In this document: piece after piece, positions 12,213 through 15,923 of the stretch
How the letters are laid out: each line of letters opens with the position of its first letter
How positions within the stretch are numbered: the first letter of the stretch is position 1
From: a virus
Lineage: Duplodnaviria; Caudoviricetes
Direction: 5' to 3' (one strand)
DNA: 64,000 bases
IMG/VR virus record: IMGVR_UViG_3300048060_000061
Coordinates: 39,197 to 103,196 of that record
Notes under the pieces: generated by a model
Databases searched by the model: none
Seen by the model: the letters and a program-made list of their open reading frames with translations, nothing else
Told to the model about the DNA's origin: nothing
Translations under genes and position numbers: made by a program

Positions 12213-12326
12213 AAAAAAGAGCGGGCTTTTTTTCTCACTCTTATCCTTGTCTTACCCAACCTAGCTAAAACTCACCGTATCGGACCTAAATTGTAAATAT
12301 GCTTCACGATTCATTGCCATAACTTG

Positions 12327-12569
12327 TTAACCTCTTTGCCTTTCTAGGATTTGATAACGCCGTTCGCGAATACTGCTGGTAATTGCCGTATGGCAGATTT
12401 CACATAACGTTACAAGATCATTATTAACATTTTCTTTGGGTATTCTTCCGTAAGCTGATGGCTTATGATGTATTTGCAAGCCATCTTTACTACCACATGT
12501 CTTGCATTCGTATCGGTCTATCTGCCCACCATCCGAACTTTTTGACTTGTTTGAGCCATTGTTTCTTGG
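12327..12569 (-). pseudogene. HNH endonuclease remnant
   Basis: Start-less frame encodes CKTCGSKDGLQIHHK...DLVTLCEICH; in-frame TGA at 12570-12572 upstream. Confidence 0.6.
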
Positions 12570-12684
12570 TCATTACCAAACCATATGTAACCAATTCATA
12601 CCGAATGTCGGCCCTGATCGGCTGTGGTATAGTACCTAAGACAAATTATTTTTTTCATCATTTCAGTTTTCCTTTGGCGTCTTC

Positions 12685-12900
12685 TCAGGCTTCTATGAAT
12701 AATGTATTAATTTCTTTGATTCTATCAAGATAGTTTTTGGTCATAGAAATACCATGCTCATCCTCTCCAAGACCATTTTCAACTAAATCTGAAGCGAACG
12801 ATTGAATAGCTACCCGGACGGTCATAGCTTGACCAGTCGTTAATAATGTTCCGTTTACTATGATTTTTGGTTCATCAATTGAAAAAGTAGGCTTATTCAT
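12685..12900 (-). CDS. Hypothetical protein
   Basis: 71-aa ORF with RBS. Confidence 0.6.
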   Translation of the reverse strand: MNKPTFSIDEPKIIVNGTLLTTGQAMTVRVAIQSFASDLVENGLGEDEHGISMTKNYLDRIKEINTLFIEA

Positions 12901-12946
12901 TTTATTACCTTTGTTGTTTTCTGGTCAGTATGCCGTCTTATTTTGT

Positions 12947-13210
12947 TTACACACACCATCCGCAATGCCCAAAACTCAGTTTTACTTCTAGCATCCTGAC
13001 TATCTTTTCGTATTCTTCTTCAGATATATTGTATTTTTCTAAAATGAACTGAGTAGATGGCTTGCCTTCGAAAATCATATTACCACACCCGTACATCCCG
13101 GGATTGTTATCATGTTGATTTCCAAATTCCCTGCTATCGCCTTTCACTTGATTTATGATAAATTTAGATGTGCTACATAATGTATCGGGTACTTCTAATT
13201 CTACTTTCAT
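12947..13210 (-). CDS. Hypothetical protein
   Basis: 87-aa ORF ending CGWCV; AAAGGA RBS. Confidence 0.6.
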   Translation of the reverse strand: MKVELEVPDTLCSTSKFIINQVKGDSREFGNQHDNNPGMYGCGNMIFEGKPSTQFILEKYNISEEEYEKIVRMLEVKLSFGHCGWCV

Positions 13211-13259
13211 TTTCTAAGTCCTTTCATTTTCTAAGTCAGTCAATCCTTAACTCCCCTTT

Positions 13260-13289
13260 ACTATACCACGAAGTATATGGTTCTGTCAA
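13260..13289 (-). promoter_or_regulatory. Repeated early-type promoter
   Basis: TTGACA-18-TATAGT with conserved TATACTTCGT spacer; also at 23133, 53226 and 55041. Confidence 0.7.
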
Positions 13290-13352
13290 CCCCCAATCTA
13301 ATATGTGCTGCGCAAGCACTTACGAGTTTCCATTACCGATACCATACAAAAA

Positions 13353-13425
13353 TACCCCCGGCAGGACTCGAACCTGCATCTTCTGGGCCTAAACCAGATG
13401 CCTCTACCAATTGCGCTACGGGGGC
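13353..13425 (-). tRNA. tRNA-Leu(TAG), short variable loop
   Basis: GCCCCCG acceptor; TCTGG-TTTAGGC-CCAGA anticodon arm; GGTTCGAGTCC T-arm. Confidence 0.85.
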
Positions 13426-13431
13426 ATAAAG

Positions 13432-13515
13432 CGGAAGGGGCGGGACTCGAACCCGCAGACGTTTTACCGCTTACCTCATTAGCAGTGAGGCTCCTTACCA
13501 TTCGGACACCCTTCC
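13432..13515 (-). tRNA. tRNA-Ser(GCT)
   Basis: CCTCA-CTGCTAA-TGAGG; long variable arm; G73. Confidence 0.92.
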
Positions 13516-13522
13516 AAAATAG

Positions 13523-13610
13523 CGGATGGAGTGGGACTTGAACCCACACGGCTTTTACACCCAACTGTTTTCAAGACAGTGGCCCGTAGACCCACTTGGC
13601 TTATCCATCC
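13523..13610 (-). tRNA. tRNA-Ser(TGA)
   Basis: ACTGT-CTTGAAA-ACAGT; long variable arm; G73. Confidence 0.92.
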
Positions 13611-13613
13611 AAA

Positions 13614-13698
13614 AGGGGAATGATGGAATTGAACCATCTGCTAACCACCTGTCATATTTAAGCAAGTGTTTTACAGACACCCGACAGGAACATTCCCC
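13614..13698 (-). tRNA. Atypical tRNA-Tyr(GTA)-like RNA lacking a canonical D-arm
   Basis: GGGGAAT/ATTCCCC acceptor; GGTGT-CTGTAAA-ACACT; GATGG-TTCAATT-CCATC T-arm; only ~10 nt in the D region. Confidence 0.6.
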
Positions 13699-13702
13699 AT
13701 AA

Positions 13703-13777
13703 TGGCCCCTCCCGGATTCGAACCGGGACTGTCTGCATTTTAAGTGCAGTGCCTCATACCAATTGCGCTAAGGGGCC
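13703..13777 (-). tRNA. tRNA-Leu(TAA), short variable loop
   Basis: GGCCCCT acceptor; CTGCA-CTTAAAA-TGCAG; CCCGG-TTCGAAT-CCGGG. Confidence 0.85.
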
Positions 13778-13910
13778 AAATTATCTTACCTGAAAGTCTA
13801 CTTAAATCGTCTCAACTTCAAACCTACCGTTTCTATTTTCATTTACTTCCCTTTTATCACTAGCCATCATTTGCGATTAAAGTGTACGGTATAGGTATAC
13901 CAGTTTTCCA

Positions 13911-13947
13911 TCGAACCGGGACTGTCTGCATTTTAAGTGCAGTGCCT
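13911..13947. repeat. 37-nt exact copy of tRNA-Leu(TAA) segment 13718-13754
   Basis: TCGAACCGGGACTGTCTGCATTTTAAGTGCAGTGCCT occurs at both positions. Confidence 0.95.
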
Positions 13948-13956
13948 GTTCTTTTT

Positions 13957-14230
13957 ACTTACTCACAAACGCCCGTGGGGAAACCATGCAACACCGGGCC
14001 TGATTTCGGTTTAAAATCACTGATCCTCCAAACGCCCGTGGGGAAACCGACCTCCACAACCCACGATAACCGTTGAACCCACTGATCCTCCAAACGCCCG
14101 TGGGGAAACCGAATTGATCCTTATCAAAACAAACATCCCTGATCCTCCAAACGCCCGTGGGGAAACCTGTGAAGTGGGTTCGCGCATGTTCAACCGCGAA
14201 CCTGATCCTCCAAACGCCCGTGGGGAAACC
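13957..14230 (-). CRISPR. CRISPR array 1: four full 29-nt repeats, one degenerate terminal repeat, four spacers
   Basis: Repeat (minus) GGTTTCCCCACGGGCGTTTGGAGGATCAG at 14202-14230, 14139-14167, 14082-14110, 14020-14048; partial at 13966-13985; spacers 34, 28, 33, 34 nt. Confidence 0.95.
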
Positions 14231-14335
14231 CCTGAAAAGAGCAAATAAAAAGGTAATTCGCTCACTGTTAATATCAGCCGAATAATCTTGGCTGCACGTA
14301 ACTAGTGTCTTGGTTGAGCAGTCCCAACCGTGCAG
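14231..14335 (-). ncRNA. Putative omegaRNA/tracrRNA scaffold overlapping the 3' end of the nuclease gene
   Basis: Hairpins GGTTGG-GACTGC-TCAACC and CAGCC...GGCTG, then GAGCGAATTACC and the 5' strand of a 14-bp stem; TnpB omegaRNAs overlap the ORF end. Confidence 0.7.
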
Positions 14336-15653
14336 ACTTTTCCTCTAGCCTGCGTTCAAATTGCCCGGTTCGTGCTAATAAAATTACCTTAACATCTTTA
14401 TAAGGCGTAAATAACCGTATCTCAGGATCATTCAGCCTGGCCAAGATATTCCGAGCAGCATTTGTATCCGCTTGCAATACCTTCCCGTCGAAACAGTAAA
14501 ACCTATCCCCATTACGATGCCCCAATAGGATACCGTGCCGGGAATCAGTTTGCGAGGTATATGCAGCATTAACTGTTTTAATCGTAGAACCTCTACGATT
14601 AGATACCGATTCTATTGCCTCAGCTATAGCACCCTTCGTCCAACCAGCAAGACGGCGGTTTTGATTCTTGCCGTATGACTTGCCATTTATCGGGTTCGTT
14701 AAATCTTCGGTGACTATAATGTCGGCCTTGTCAACTACTGAATGAGCCGCCTTGAAAATCTTGTCTCTTACATTGGCTGTATGTATACGCTTGCGCTCAT
14801 CCAGCTTTTTACGCCCCAAGTTGTTTTTTAGAATATTATCACACTTATGGGGCTTCGCTTCCGCTATTGCCTTTAGCTTGTTTCTACGTTGATACTTGGT
14901 TTTAAGATAGTCTGATTCCTTACTTAACAATTCTCCTAGTCCTTCACCGTGGTGTTTCCCATCTGAATCTACAAAGACCTCAGTATAACCTTTATCAATT
15001 CCTATAGTCCCATCACCACTGGGTCGAGTAACGCAAACCTTTTCCTCATCAATAGCATAATGTACTTCAATACGTCCATTACGTAGGATCAACCGAAGTG
15101 TTCCCGATGGAGTATTGTTGCTATTCAAAGGGATAGCTATGCGCTTCCCAGATTCCAAGCTCATTACCTTAAGCCAAATCTTACCACCCTTTTCAAAAGT
15201 CGTATAGCATTGGGAATCCAGTACAATCTGATTATCAACCTTGGTTTTACCGTGCTTAAAATATTTACGCATCATACGACGCAAATAACTATCTTTCAAC
15301 CAATTGTCATATTTAAGCAGAGTATAAAGGCGTTTACGCTCGTCATTATCATCAGTCCTTTGGCGTATTGCCTTTCGCACTTTGACTTTGGCAGCTTCAC
15401 GGTAAGTAACTATATCTGCGAAAGTATCTCTTAAGGTTTCATTCCGAAGACGGGCGGCAATATTAAAGTGCCTACCTTCGGCGGTCCATTGATTTCTTAT
15501 TTGACGGTGTGTTAATTCTACACCTTGGACTGAACCAAAGCGTTGCCAGACTTCAGCCCGTAGTTTGCCCAATCGACTAGCCATTTCAGTTAATTGAGCT
15601 AACTTTCCTTCATTAAGATTTTGGCTGTAGATAATCCGAGTAACTTTACTCAT
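14274..15653 (-). CDS. tnpB: TnpB/miniature Cas12-family RNA-guided nuclease (resembles the V-U4/Cas12n clade)
   Basis: 459 aa; RuvC-I GIDKG (D220), RuvC-II VTEDL (E316), NAAYTSQ, RuvC-III ADTNAARNI (D396); degenerate Zn finger; CRISPR array 43 nt downstream. Confidence 0.88.
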   Translation of the reverse strand: MSKVTRIIYSQNLNEGKLAQLTEMASRLGKLRAEVWQRFGSVQGVELTHRQIRNQWTAEGRHFNIAARLRNETLRDTFADIVTYREAAKVKVRKAIRQRTDDNDERKRLYTLLKYDNWLKDSYLRRMMRKYFKHGKTKVDNQIVLDSQCYTTFEKGGKIWLKVMSLESGKRIAIPLNSNNTPSGTLRLILRNGRIEVHYAIDEEKVCVTRPSGDGTIGIDKGYTEVFVDSDGKHHGEGLGELLSKESDYLKTKYQRRNKLKAIAEAKPHKCDNILKNNLGRKKLDERKRIHTANVRDKIFKAAHSVVDKADIIVTEDLTNPINGKSYGKNQNRRLAGWTKGAIAEAIESVSNRRGSTIKTVNAAYTSQTDSRHGILLGHRNGDRFYCFDGKVLQADTNAARNILARLNDPEIRLFTPYKDVKVILLARTGQFERRLEEKSARLGLLNQDTSYVQPRLFG

Positions 15654-15660
15654 CAGATAC

Positions 15661-15867
15661 TTATACTACCTTGTCTTTCTTTTTTACCGTAGGTGGATTG
15701 ACCTGAATATCACCGCTAATTCCCAACAGAATCAGAGCTTCAACATATGATTGCCAGCGAATAAAGCCAGATTTTTTAGCAATATCTATAAGTTTTTCTT
15801 TGAAATCTTTTTCAATCCACATTTGGAGGTTGATTTGATTTTCACGGGTCATATTTTTGCTCCTCAA
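15661..15867 (-). CDS. RHH-like regulator upstream of tnpB
   Basis: INLQMWIEKDFKEKLIDIAKK...SYVEALI pattern; 7-nt gap to tnpB. Confidence 0.55.
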   Translation of the reverse strand: MRSKNMTRENQINLQMWIEKDFKEKLIDIAKKSGFIRWQSYVEALILLGISGDIQVNPPTVKKKDKVV

Positions 15868-15923
15868 TCATATTCAATATACACCTCCTATACAGAATTG
15901 TCAACTCTGGAATAGATATACTA

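What the first reader, a model, noticed from the sequence alone, without database searches (positions are those of the whole stretch)
13718..13947. The terminal guide position holds an exact copy of the phage's own tRNA-Leu(TAA) anticodon and T arms
Seen: immediately after ...AAAAAGAACAG on the minus strand come 35 nt (13945-13911; 37 nt including AG) identical to tRNA-Leu 13718-13754, close to spacer length. The 5' half of the tRNA is not visible at the other end of the nuclease locus, which argues against simple insertion into a tRNA copy. Inference: a guide aimed at tRNA-Leu genes of related phages or at an integration site (homing or exclusion); the resident copy, flanked 5' by TATGAG, may escape through TAM mismatch.
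Basis: partly seen in the sequence, partly recalled or inferred. Interest (0 to 1): 0.8.

Follow-up and report, generated by a model that had tools for sequence, protein, structure and literature searches.

The report
Transposon guide RNA copies phage tRNA-Leu
A 35-37 base copy of the phage's own tRNA-Leu gene sits exactly where a decayed IS607 transposon's TnpB nuclease takes its guide RNA, most likely because the transposon once landed in a tRNA-Leu gene, and the intact gene 193 bases away differs from a cuttable target by one base of the recognition motif.

Summary
Bases 13911-13947 are an exact copy of 13718-13754, which lie inside tRNA-Leu(TAA). The copy starts exactly at the transposon right end, as defined independently in about 20 relatives: their guide RNA (omegaRNA) ends in ...AAAAAGGAACAG and then meets unrelated flank.

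The nuclease is an IS607-family TnpB of 459 aa with its catalytic D220/E316/D396 intact. Its transposase gene tnpA and its left end have been deleted. About 45 nt of tnpA remain, fused to a resident phage RHH-like gene. The missing tRNA 5' half at the other end therefore says nothing about origin.

Left-end flanks of 12 relatives give an insertion/TAM motif NRGAG. The intact tRNA gene has ATGAG in front of the match, so GAG is kept and only position -4 is off.

Best reading (about 0.6): the tRNA piece is the flank of an IS607 insertion into a phage-type tRNA-Leu gene, and so became the guide by construction. The resident gene is an unoccupied copy of the same site in cis, probably spared by the TAM. 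Why identity stops in the T loop is unexplained.

No target in other phages was found, and reads could not be checked. The 4-spacer array inside the guide RNA's terminal hairpin recurs in the closest relatives and is noted separately.

The parts
13702..13778 (-). Resident, apparently intact tRNA-Leu(TAA), the first gene of a minus-strand tRNA cluster (13352-13778).
   Evidence: ARAGORN; Rfam tRNA 56.8 bits.
13718..13752 (-). Perfect 35-nt match to the terminal guide, inside the resident tRNA gene (anticodon arm, short variable loop, 5' T stem and part of the T loop).
   Evidence: the only match in the genome, with the next best 20-mer at 5 or more mismatches.
13753..13757 (-). TAM-like pentamer ATGAG directly 5' of the match in the resident gene. 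It is near-cognate: GAG is kept, and -4 is T instead of a purine.
   Evidence: Upstream 10 nt are TTGGTATGAG. Family motif NRGAG comes from 12 left-end flanks.
13779..13910 (-). 132-nt spacer between the tRNA fragment and the intact gene. It is unrelated to the tRNA's own 3' flank, and no terminator was found in it.
13911..13945 (-). Terminal guide position: 35 nt of tRNA-Leu(TAA), directly 3' of the transposon right end.
   Evidence: right-end boundary from relatives.
13946..13965 (-). Canonical guide-RNA 3' module and IS607 right end, TGAGTAAGTAAAAAGAACAG. Its last AG (13947-13946) is shared with the tRNA and is probably the recombinase crossover dinucleotide. It has one G fewer than the family consensus GGAACAG.
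   Evidence: The consensus (GAGT)AAG(A)AAAAAGGAACAG precedes the flank in about 20 relatives.
13966..14230 (-). Mini-array of four identical 29-nt repeats GGTTTCCCCACGGGCGTTTGGAGGATCAG (starting at 14230, 14167, 14110, 14048), spacers of 34, 28, 33 and 34 nt, and a fifth repeat truncated to 20 nt (13985-13966). It lies in the loop of the guide RNA's terminal hairpin.
   Evidence: The same layout occurs in L028 and L029 and begins in L004.
14239..14252 (-). 5' strand of the terminal hairpin (CUUUUUAUUUGCUC). It pairs with 13964-13951.
   Evidence: Centroid fold; the equivalent ACC-UUUU...AAAAGG hairpin in canonical relatives.
14253..14420 (-). Conserved guide-RNA scaffold overlapping the 3' end of tnpB (...CGGTTGGGACTGCTCAACC...TTAACAGTGAGCGAATTACC).
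   Evidence: Alignment A1.
14274..15653 (-). tnpB, encoding a 459-aa IS607-family RNA-guided nuclease with D220/E316/D396 intact.
   Evidence: NF040570 3e-30 and PF07282. The three residues are invariant in 29 homologues. There are 1760 homologues, many next to MerR-Resolvase TnpA.
15654..15700 (-). Remnant of the tnpA 3' end. The rest of tnpA and the left end are deleted.
   Evidence: Alignment A3.
15661..15867 (-). 68-aa RHH-like ORF, a resident island gene whose last codons come from the tnpA remnant.
   Evidence: Positional counterparts in the syntenic phages L036 and L038. There is only a weak RHH lead and no Pfam hit.
15876..15904 (-). Strong sigma-70-like promoter (TTGACA-17-TATATT) in front of the RHH-tnpB-array-tRNA block.
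   Evidence: consensus match only.

Best explanation
The tRNA piece is the DNA that flanked the right end of an IS607-family transposon when it inserted, at ...TGAG|GCAC..., into a phage-type tRNA-Leu(TAA) gene. That gene was either a second copy in this tRNA cluster or one in a related phage from which the block was acquired. TnpB guide RNA is transcribed across the right end into the flank, so the tRNA sequence became the native guide automatically.

A later deletion ran from the 3' end of the phage's RHH-like gene into the 3' end of tnpA. It removed the left end, the transposase and the tRNA 5' half. This immobilised the element and placed tnpB behind a phage promoter.

The intact tRNA-Leu gene 193 bp downstream is in effect the unoccupied copy of the same site, in cis. 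It carries a perfect 35-nt match, but the preceding pentamer is ATGAG rather than the family's RRGAG, so it is probably not cut.

Shown: the duplication, the right-end register, the family membership, the tnpA/left-end deletion and the flank motif.

Inferred: the insertion history, that the terminal guide is still loaded, and that T at -4 blocks cleavage.
For: (1) The identity starts exactly at the right-end boundary defined by relatives.
(2) The shared AG matches the AG found at both junctions in the family. The right end always ends in CAG, and the left-end flank ended in GAG in 11 of 12 cases read, with L013 ambiguous.
(3) In the intact gene the three bases before the boundary are GAG, the invariant part of the insertion/TAM motif.
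(4) The fragment has the same unusual 5-nt variable loop as the phage's own tRNA-Leu, so its source was a phage-type tRNA gene, not a bacterial long-arm tRNA-Leu.
(5) Relatives are IS607 elements, many with MerR-Resolvase TnpA. The 2-kb contigs and 24 cluster members on one 6.1-Mb contig suggest they are multi-copy.
(6) Loss of tnpA and the left end in the window is shown by alignment and recurs in L028, L005 and L014.
(7) For the characterised IS607 TnpB ISFba1 the TAM is AGGAG, and any single TAM change abolishes cleavage (PMC11061315).
Against: Identity stops after 35 nt, in the T loop (13910/13911), although 16 more tRNA bases would be expected after a simple insertion. A second rearrangement is needed and is not explained. 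The insertion site itself has T at -4, outside the purine seen in 12 of 12 relatives. The terminal module has lost one G and part of the hairpin relative to L028 and L029, so it may be decaying. No close relative of this phage shows the pre-insertion state. The ISFba1 TAM data come from a protein too distant to match by sequence.
Confidence: 0.6

Rival explanations
1. The guide is kept as a working weapon or homing device, an RNA-guided counterpart of T4 SegB. TnpB cuts tRNA-Leu(TAA) alleles of co-infecting related phages that carry a cognate RGAG motif. Repair then copies the tnpB-tRNA block into the rival. The resident allele is immunised by the extra T in its D loop (GGTATGAG, against GGTAGAG in the paralogous tRNA-Leu(TAG)).
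For: tnpB is intact, with its catalytic triad, and sits behind a strong promoter. There is a perfect 35-nt match with only one TAM base off. The paralogue has TAGAG at the same place. The cassette lies next to the tRNA cluster, as segB does in T4 (PMC2330249; PMC13096335). Relatives L036 and L038 lack both the tRNAs and tnpB in the same island, so the block could move as a unit.
Against: No tRNA-Leu allele matching the guide was found in IMG/VR or in the phage database. The cleavage specificity of this TnpB is unknown. The terminal module is slightly degenerate. The D-loop T could be neutral variation.
Confidence: 0.17
2. The duplication is unrelated to TnpB. It would be an attachment-site-type repeat or a local recombination scar in the tRNA cluster that happens to abut the element.
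For: tRNA genes are common attachment and recombination sites. The island between the tape-measure gene and the distal tail genes is variable among relatives.
Against: The fragment lacks the tRNA 3' end, lies upstream of the intact gene, and has no integrase nearby. Its start coincides to the base with the right end and, in the intact gene, with a GAG motif.
Confidence: 0.08
3. Assembly artefact: the contig was mis-joined or looped at a shared tRNA k-mer.
For: It is a metagenome-derived contig, and the repeat is longer than small assembly k-mers. Reads could not be checked.
Against: Both copies have distinct unique flanks on both sides. The cassette is embedded in phage sequence on both sides: the promoter/leader and PKD gene are shared with L036 and L038 on one side, and the tRNA cluster and downstream island lie on the other. 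A mis-join would leave one copy, not two.
Confidence: 0.05
4. Regulatory use: TnpB with this guide binds the tRNA-Leu gene without cutting and modulates transcription into the tRNA cluster, as TldR-type repressors do.
For: The target lies at the head of the co-oriented tRNA cluster, with no terminator between the array and the tRNAs. A near-cognate TAM could allow binding without cleavage.
Against: The catalytic residues are intact, whereas known TldRs are nuclease-dead. There is no evidence of binding.
Confidence: 0.04

Closest known systems
IS607-family TnpB with its guide RNA (OMEGA system), e.g. ISFba1 TnpB (PMC11061315); archetypal Helicobacter IS607
   Same: It is a RuvC nuclease encoded next to a MerR-serine-recombinase TnpA in relatives. 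The guide RNA overlaps the gene's 3' end and stops at the right end, and the guide is the flank. The purine-rich 5' motif ends in GAG (AGGAG in 5 of 12 flanks). The nearest named phage-borne relative is the IS607 OrfB of a Helicobacter felis phage, at 52% identity.
   Different: There is no Rfam RAGATH-18 match, and the protein is too distant from solved structures to match by sequence. The element ends in CAG rather than the GG reported for most IS607 (PMC13565253). In the window tnpA and the left end are deleted, and a repeat-spacer array is inserted in the terminal hairpin.
TranC (transposon-CRISPR intermediates) and type V-U* TnpB-like nucleases with downstream arrays (PMC10691335; bioRxiv 10.64898/2026.03.27.714800)
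   Same: It is a TnpB-sized nuclease followed by a short co-oriented array with unique spacers and no cas1/cas2. Phage-borne examples exist.
   Different: Here the array sits inside the guide RNA, and the ancestral right-end module and flank-derived guide are retained after it. Relatives L004 and L029 still carry tnpA, so the array travels inside a mobile element. Repeats are 29 nt, against the 32-38 reported for the tested TranC clades. Membership of a named TranC clade was not tested.
Cas12r-CRISPR of Thermus Lalka phages (bioRxiv 10.64898/2026.04.20.719267)
   Same: It is a phage-borne TnpB-derived nuclease within the structural gene cluster, with 29-bp type I-E-like repeats, spacers of about 32 nt and a purine-rich 5' motif (ARG). 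Its authors proposed that the host I-E system supplies spacers.
   Different: Cas12r is 564 aa and not a detectable sequence relative. It has no retained transposon right end or flank guide. Its spacers match Thermus mobile elements, whereas none of the window's spacers found a target.
T4/T6 SegB, a free-standing homing endonuclease in the phage tRNA gene region (PMC2330249, PMC13096335)
   Same: A nuclease gene lies beside a phage tRNA cluster and its target lies within tRNA genes. This is a possible route to preferential inheritance or amplification of the tRNA block.
   Different: SegB is a protein-guided GIY-YIG enzyme and unrelated in sequence. For the window, any cutting of tRNA genes is only a hypothesis.

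Membership tests
IS607-family TnpB/guide-RNA (OMEGA) element | TnpB-type RuvC nuclease with the D-E-D triad | tested here: met
   NF040570 at 105.8 bits (cut-off 100) and PF07282. D220, E316 and D396 are invariant in 29 homologues.
IS607-family TnpB/guide-RNA (OMEGA) element | Adjacent serine-recombinase TnpA (MerR + Resolvase) | tested here: not met
   It is present in relatives L004, L006, L034, L035 and others. In the window only about 45 nt of the tnpA 3' end remain. The window holds a decayed derivative, not a complete element.
IS607-family TnpB/guide-RNA (OMEGA) element | Guide RNA scaffold ends at the right end, so the flank serves as guide | tested here: met
   The conserved scaffold and terminal module end in CAG. 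Copies of the same element at different sites diverge right after it. RNA expression was not tested.
IS607-family TnpB/guide-RNA (OMEGA) element | Purine-rich 5' TAM matching the left-end flank | tested here: inconclusive
   Twelve left-end flanks give NRGAG, which agrees with the published AGGAG. The resident tRNA site has ATGAG. This is an insertion-site motif, not a measured TAM.
IS607-family TnpB/guide-RNA (OMEGA) element | RNA-guided DNA cleavage | not testable with these tools
   It needs a biochemical or interference assay.
TranC / type V-U CRISPR-like system | Co-oriented array of direct repeats with unique spacers, conserved in relatives | tested here: met
   The window has 4 full repeats plus 1 partial repeat. 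L028 has 2 spacers, L029 has 1, and the L004 contig ends in repeat 1. Relatives at 73% identity or less have no array.
TranC / type V-U CRISPR-like system | Guide RNA functionally split into tracrRNA and crRNA, with array spacers used as guides | not testable with these tools
   There is only a sequence hint: the repeat 3' end GGATCAG resembles the right end GGAACAG.
TranC / type V-U CRISPR-like system | Spacers match mobile elements or viruses | tested here: not met
   There were no exact hits in IMG/VR, no hit to a spacer or the guide in the phage database and no other self-match.
tRNA attachment-site duplication by an integrase | The partial copy includes the tRNA 3' end, lies beyond the intact gene across an island, and has an integrase nearby | tested here: not met
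   The fragment covers only about tRNA positions 26-60. It lies 132 nt upstream of the intact gene, and no integrase lies in 11-19 kb.

The most novel reading that the evidence does not exclude
The immobilised TnpB may act as an RNA-guided analogue of the T4 SegB homing endonuclease. Its hard-wired tRNA-Leu guide would cut cognate-TAM alleles in co-infecting relatives. That would drive inheritance or amplification of the tnpB-tRNA block, while a one-base D-loop insertion (RGAG to TGAG) immunises the resident allele. The embedded I-E-like array would add further guides.
Probability: 0.12. Interest if true: 0.8.

Novelty: new variant of a known kind. Interest (0 to 1): 0.45.

Why it matters
This looks like a natural case in which a TnpB keeps its ancestral, flank-derived guide position next to a CRISPR-like array in the same transcript. 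The ancestral guide has a perfect match in the carrier's own genome, separated from cleavage by apparently one TAM base. That makes three things directly testable: which guide positions such an intermediate loads, how strict the TAM of this uncharacterised IS607 branch is, and whether a phage can turn a decayed transposon nuclease into a tool acting on tRNA gene clusters. If the guide is only a fossil, the locus is still a clear record of an IS607 insertion into a phage tRNA gene followed by domestication behind a phage promoter.

Tried and rejected
- Close relatives of the phage or the cassette: none found by megablast against phage records, by scanning IMG/VR with TnpB, the repeat and a neighbouring tail protein, or by exact search for the guide 24-mer.
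- Targets of the four internal spacers: no exact hit in IMG/VR. The phage-database blastn gave one weak partial hit (E 0.03) over the terminal-repeat/right-end stretch and none to a spacer or the guide. There was no other match in the genome with up to 6 mismatches.
- Solved structures: no usable sequence match.
- Searching the 6.1-Mb genome that holds many copies, to get a larger TAM set: the record is not held.
- Idea that the internal spacers are also tRNA pieces: folding against shuffles gave no consistent signal, so I dropped it.
- tRNA-Leu(TAG) as a second target: rejected, because the guide does not match it.
- The RHH-like ORF as part of the transposon: rejected, because positional counterparts head the same island in L036 and L038, which lack tnpB. 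BLASTP itself shows no similarity, so only position and architecture agree.
- Integrase attachment-site reading: rejected (see membership test).
- Rfam: no guide-RNA family matched.

Full report
**The observation.** The window is bases 39197-103196 of a complete 103,196-bp viral contig with direct terminal repeats. Bases 13911-13947 are an exact copy of 13718-13754 (D3). The sequence occurs nowhere else in the genome. The first copy lies in tRNA-Leu(TAA), 13702-13778 on the minus strand. This is the first gene of a minus-strand cluster of four ARAGORN tRNAs plus one tRNA-like gene.

Read on the minus strand, the locus has this order:
- a promoter-like site, 15904-15876;
- a 68-aa ORF, 15867-15661;
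- a 459-aa TnpB gene, 15653-14274;
- four identical 29-nt repeats with spacers of 34, 28, 33 and 34 nt, then a fifth repeat cut to 20 nt (14230-13966);
- the string TGAGTAAGTAAAAAGAACAG (13965-13946);
- the tRNA piece (13945-13911);
- 132 unrelated bases;
- the intact tRNA gene.

**Is this really the guide position?** Yes. The protein is a TnpB (NF040570 3e-30, PF07282) with 1760 homologues, many at 60-84% identity. Most of them sit directly after a MerR-Resolvase serine recombinase, the IS607 arrangement. Short 2-kb contigs, and 24 cluster members on one 6.1-Mb contig, point to a multi-copy element.

In about 20 relatives the conserved RNA region after tnpB runs ...ATCAACNGNGAGCGAATTACC, then a variable hairpin, then (GAGT)AAG(A)AAAAAGGAACAG, and then becomes unrelated. 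Two pairs that are the same element at different sites (L013/L015 vs L016, L012 vs L026) diverge immediately after CAG. The window's TGAGTAAGTAAAAAGAACAG is this right-end module, so the tRNA piece begins exactly where TnpB guides begin.

**What the 'other end' shows.** Alignment with relatives shows that only about 45 nt of the tnpA 3' end remain in the window, just upstream of the tnpB start. They are fused in frame to the 68-aa ORF. That ORF is not transposon-derived. Two syntenic phages, L036 and L038, have a similarly sized RHH-like ORF at the same place, heading a minus-strand island between the tape-measure module and a PKD-domain tail gene. Both lack tnpB and tRNAs there.

So a deletion from the RHH gene's 3' end into tnpA removed the left end, the transposase and whatever flanked the left end. 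The missing tRNA 5' half is therefore uninformative. tnpA-less derivatives recur in the family (L028, L005, L014).

**Insertion motif and TAM.** The left-end flanks of 12 relatives read AGGAG (5 times), GAGAG (3 times), and GGGAG, AAGAG and CAGAG once each, plus one ambiguous case ending in AG (L013, whose -4 read depends on a 2-nt offset). This gives NRGAG, with GAG invariant and a purine at -4. The right end always ends in CAG. AG is thus present at both junctions, as expected for a two-base serine-recombinase crossover (inference).

Published work gives AGGAG or GAGGG as the TAM of IS607 TnpBs. For ISFba1, any single TAM change abolishes cleavage, the guide is 20 nt, and cuts fall 16 and 22 nt from the TAM (PMC11061315; review PMC13565253).

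In the intact tRNA gene the bases before the match are TTGGTATGAG. The shared AG and the preceding G fit the motif, while -4 is T. The boundary of the duplication therefore looks like a genuine, slightly off-consensus IS607 target. The resident gene is a near-cognate, probably spared, TnpB target. The paralogous tRNA-Leu(TAG) has GGTAGAG at the same place, one T fewer, but it does not match the guide.

**Most likely history and mechanism (confidence about 0.6).** An IS607 inserted after GAG in a tRNA-Leu(TAA) gene of the phage type. The fragment carries the same unusual 5-nt variable loop as the resident gene, so a bacterial long-arm tRNA-Leu is excluded as its source. The flank became the guide by construction. 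A deletion then removed tnpA, the left end and the tRNA 5' half, and put tnpB behind the island promoter. The catalytic D220/E316/D396 are intact.

What remains unexplained is why identity stops in the T loop, with 16 tRNA bases missing. A second small rearrangement is required. The terminal module has also lost one G and part of the hairpin seen in L028 and L029, so the position may be decaying.

**Rival readings.** The most interesting rival (about 0.17) is that the guide is kept in use, as an RNA-guided counterpart of SegB. SegB cuts within phage tRNA genes and drives preferential inheritance or amplification of the tRNA region (PMC2330249, PMC13096335). In that reading the D-loop T would act as an immunity mutation. 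I found no target allele in other phages, and the relatives recovered are too distant to help. An attachment-site duplication, an assembly artefact and a repressor role are each unlikely, for the reasons given under rival explanations. The artefact could not be tested with reads.

**Context: the array.** The array lies in the loop of the guide RNA's terminal hairpin. 14252-14239 pairs with 13964-13951, and canonical relatives have a simple ACC-UUUU...AAAAGG hairpin there. The three closest relatives share this layout with different spacers:
- L028 (80% identity): two 32-nt spacers;
- L029 (78% identity): one 32-nt spacer, with tnpA still present;
- L004 (78% identity): tnpA present, and the contig ends in repeat 1.

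Relatives at 73% identity or less have no array. The repeat is 29 nt and hairpin-forming. It ends in GGATCAG, close to the right-end GGAACAG.

This resembles the TranC/V-U intermediates (PMC10691335; bioRxiv 10.64898/2026.03.27.714800). It also resembles the phage Cas12r system, which has I-E-like 29-bp repeats (bioRxiv 10.64898/2026.04.20.719267). Here, however, the ancestral right-end guide is retained after the array. None of the window's four spacers found a target.

**Verdict.** The simplest origin is a transposon insertion scar rather than an 'aimed' guide. The self-match with a one-base TAM deviation is a good experimental handle. I class it as a new variant of a known kind, interest 0.45.

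Noticed in passing
window 13966-14252; L028:1700-1890; L029:1840-1985; L004:4425-4457: A repeat-spacer mini-array (29-nt hairpin repeats, mostly 32-nt spacers, type I-E-like geometry) is embedded in the loop of the terminal hairpin of an IS607 guide RNA. It occurs only in the clade at 78% TnpB identity or more. In L004 and L029 the element still has tnpA, so the array rides inside an element that may still be mobile.
   Followed up: partly
window 15654-15867: The 68-aa RHH-like ORF ends in codons derived from the tnpA 3' end (..VKKKDKVV, against TnpA ..YKKKIKE). Positional RHH-like counterparts head the same island in the related phages L036 (8558-8764) and L038 (8397-8579).
   Followed up: partly
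window 12300-15900 vs L036:7200-9000 and L038:6800-8800: The minus-strand island between the tape-measure module and the PKD-domain tail gene is a variable accessory region. Relatives carry other genes there (one in L036 has CxxC...H motifs that look HNH-like by eye) and no tRNAs or tnpB.
   Followed up: partly
window 13614-13699: A tRNA-like gene lies between tRNA-Leu(TAA) and tRNA-Ser(TGA). ARAGORN misses it, and Rfam gives only a weak tRNA-Sec-model hit (28.6 bits, below the gathering score).
   Followed up: no
window 13352-13426 and 13702-13778: Both tRNA-Leu genes are short (75-77 nt) with a 4-5-nt variable loop instead of the long arm usual for bacterial tRNA-Leu. They share the D-arm sequence GCGCAATTGGTA.
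   Followed up: no
window 14310-14330 and 13946-13952 / repeat 3' ends: The loop ACUGCUC of the invariant scaffold hairpin GGUUGGGACUGCUCAACC is complementary (5 of 6 bases) both to the right-end GAACAG and to the repeat-end GAUCAG. This is a possible pseudoknot that either end could form. L014 has a perfect CUGUUCC/GGAACAG pairing.
   Followed up: no
window 13204-13237: An exact tandem duplication of a 17-nt unit, CTTTCATTTTCTAAGTC, lies just outside the tRNA cluster.
   Followed up: no
phage record BK070119.1:5291-6385: A Helicobacter felis phage record carries an IS605 OrfB-annotated TnpB 52% identical to the window's protein. It is the nearest named phage-borne relative found.
   Followed up: no
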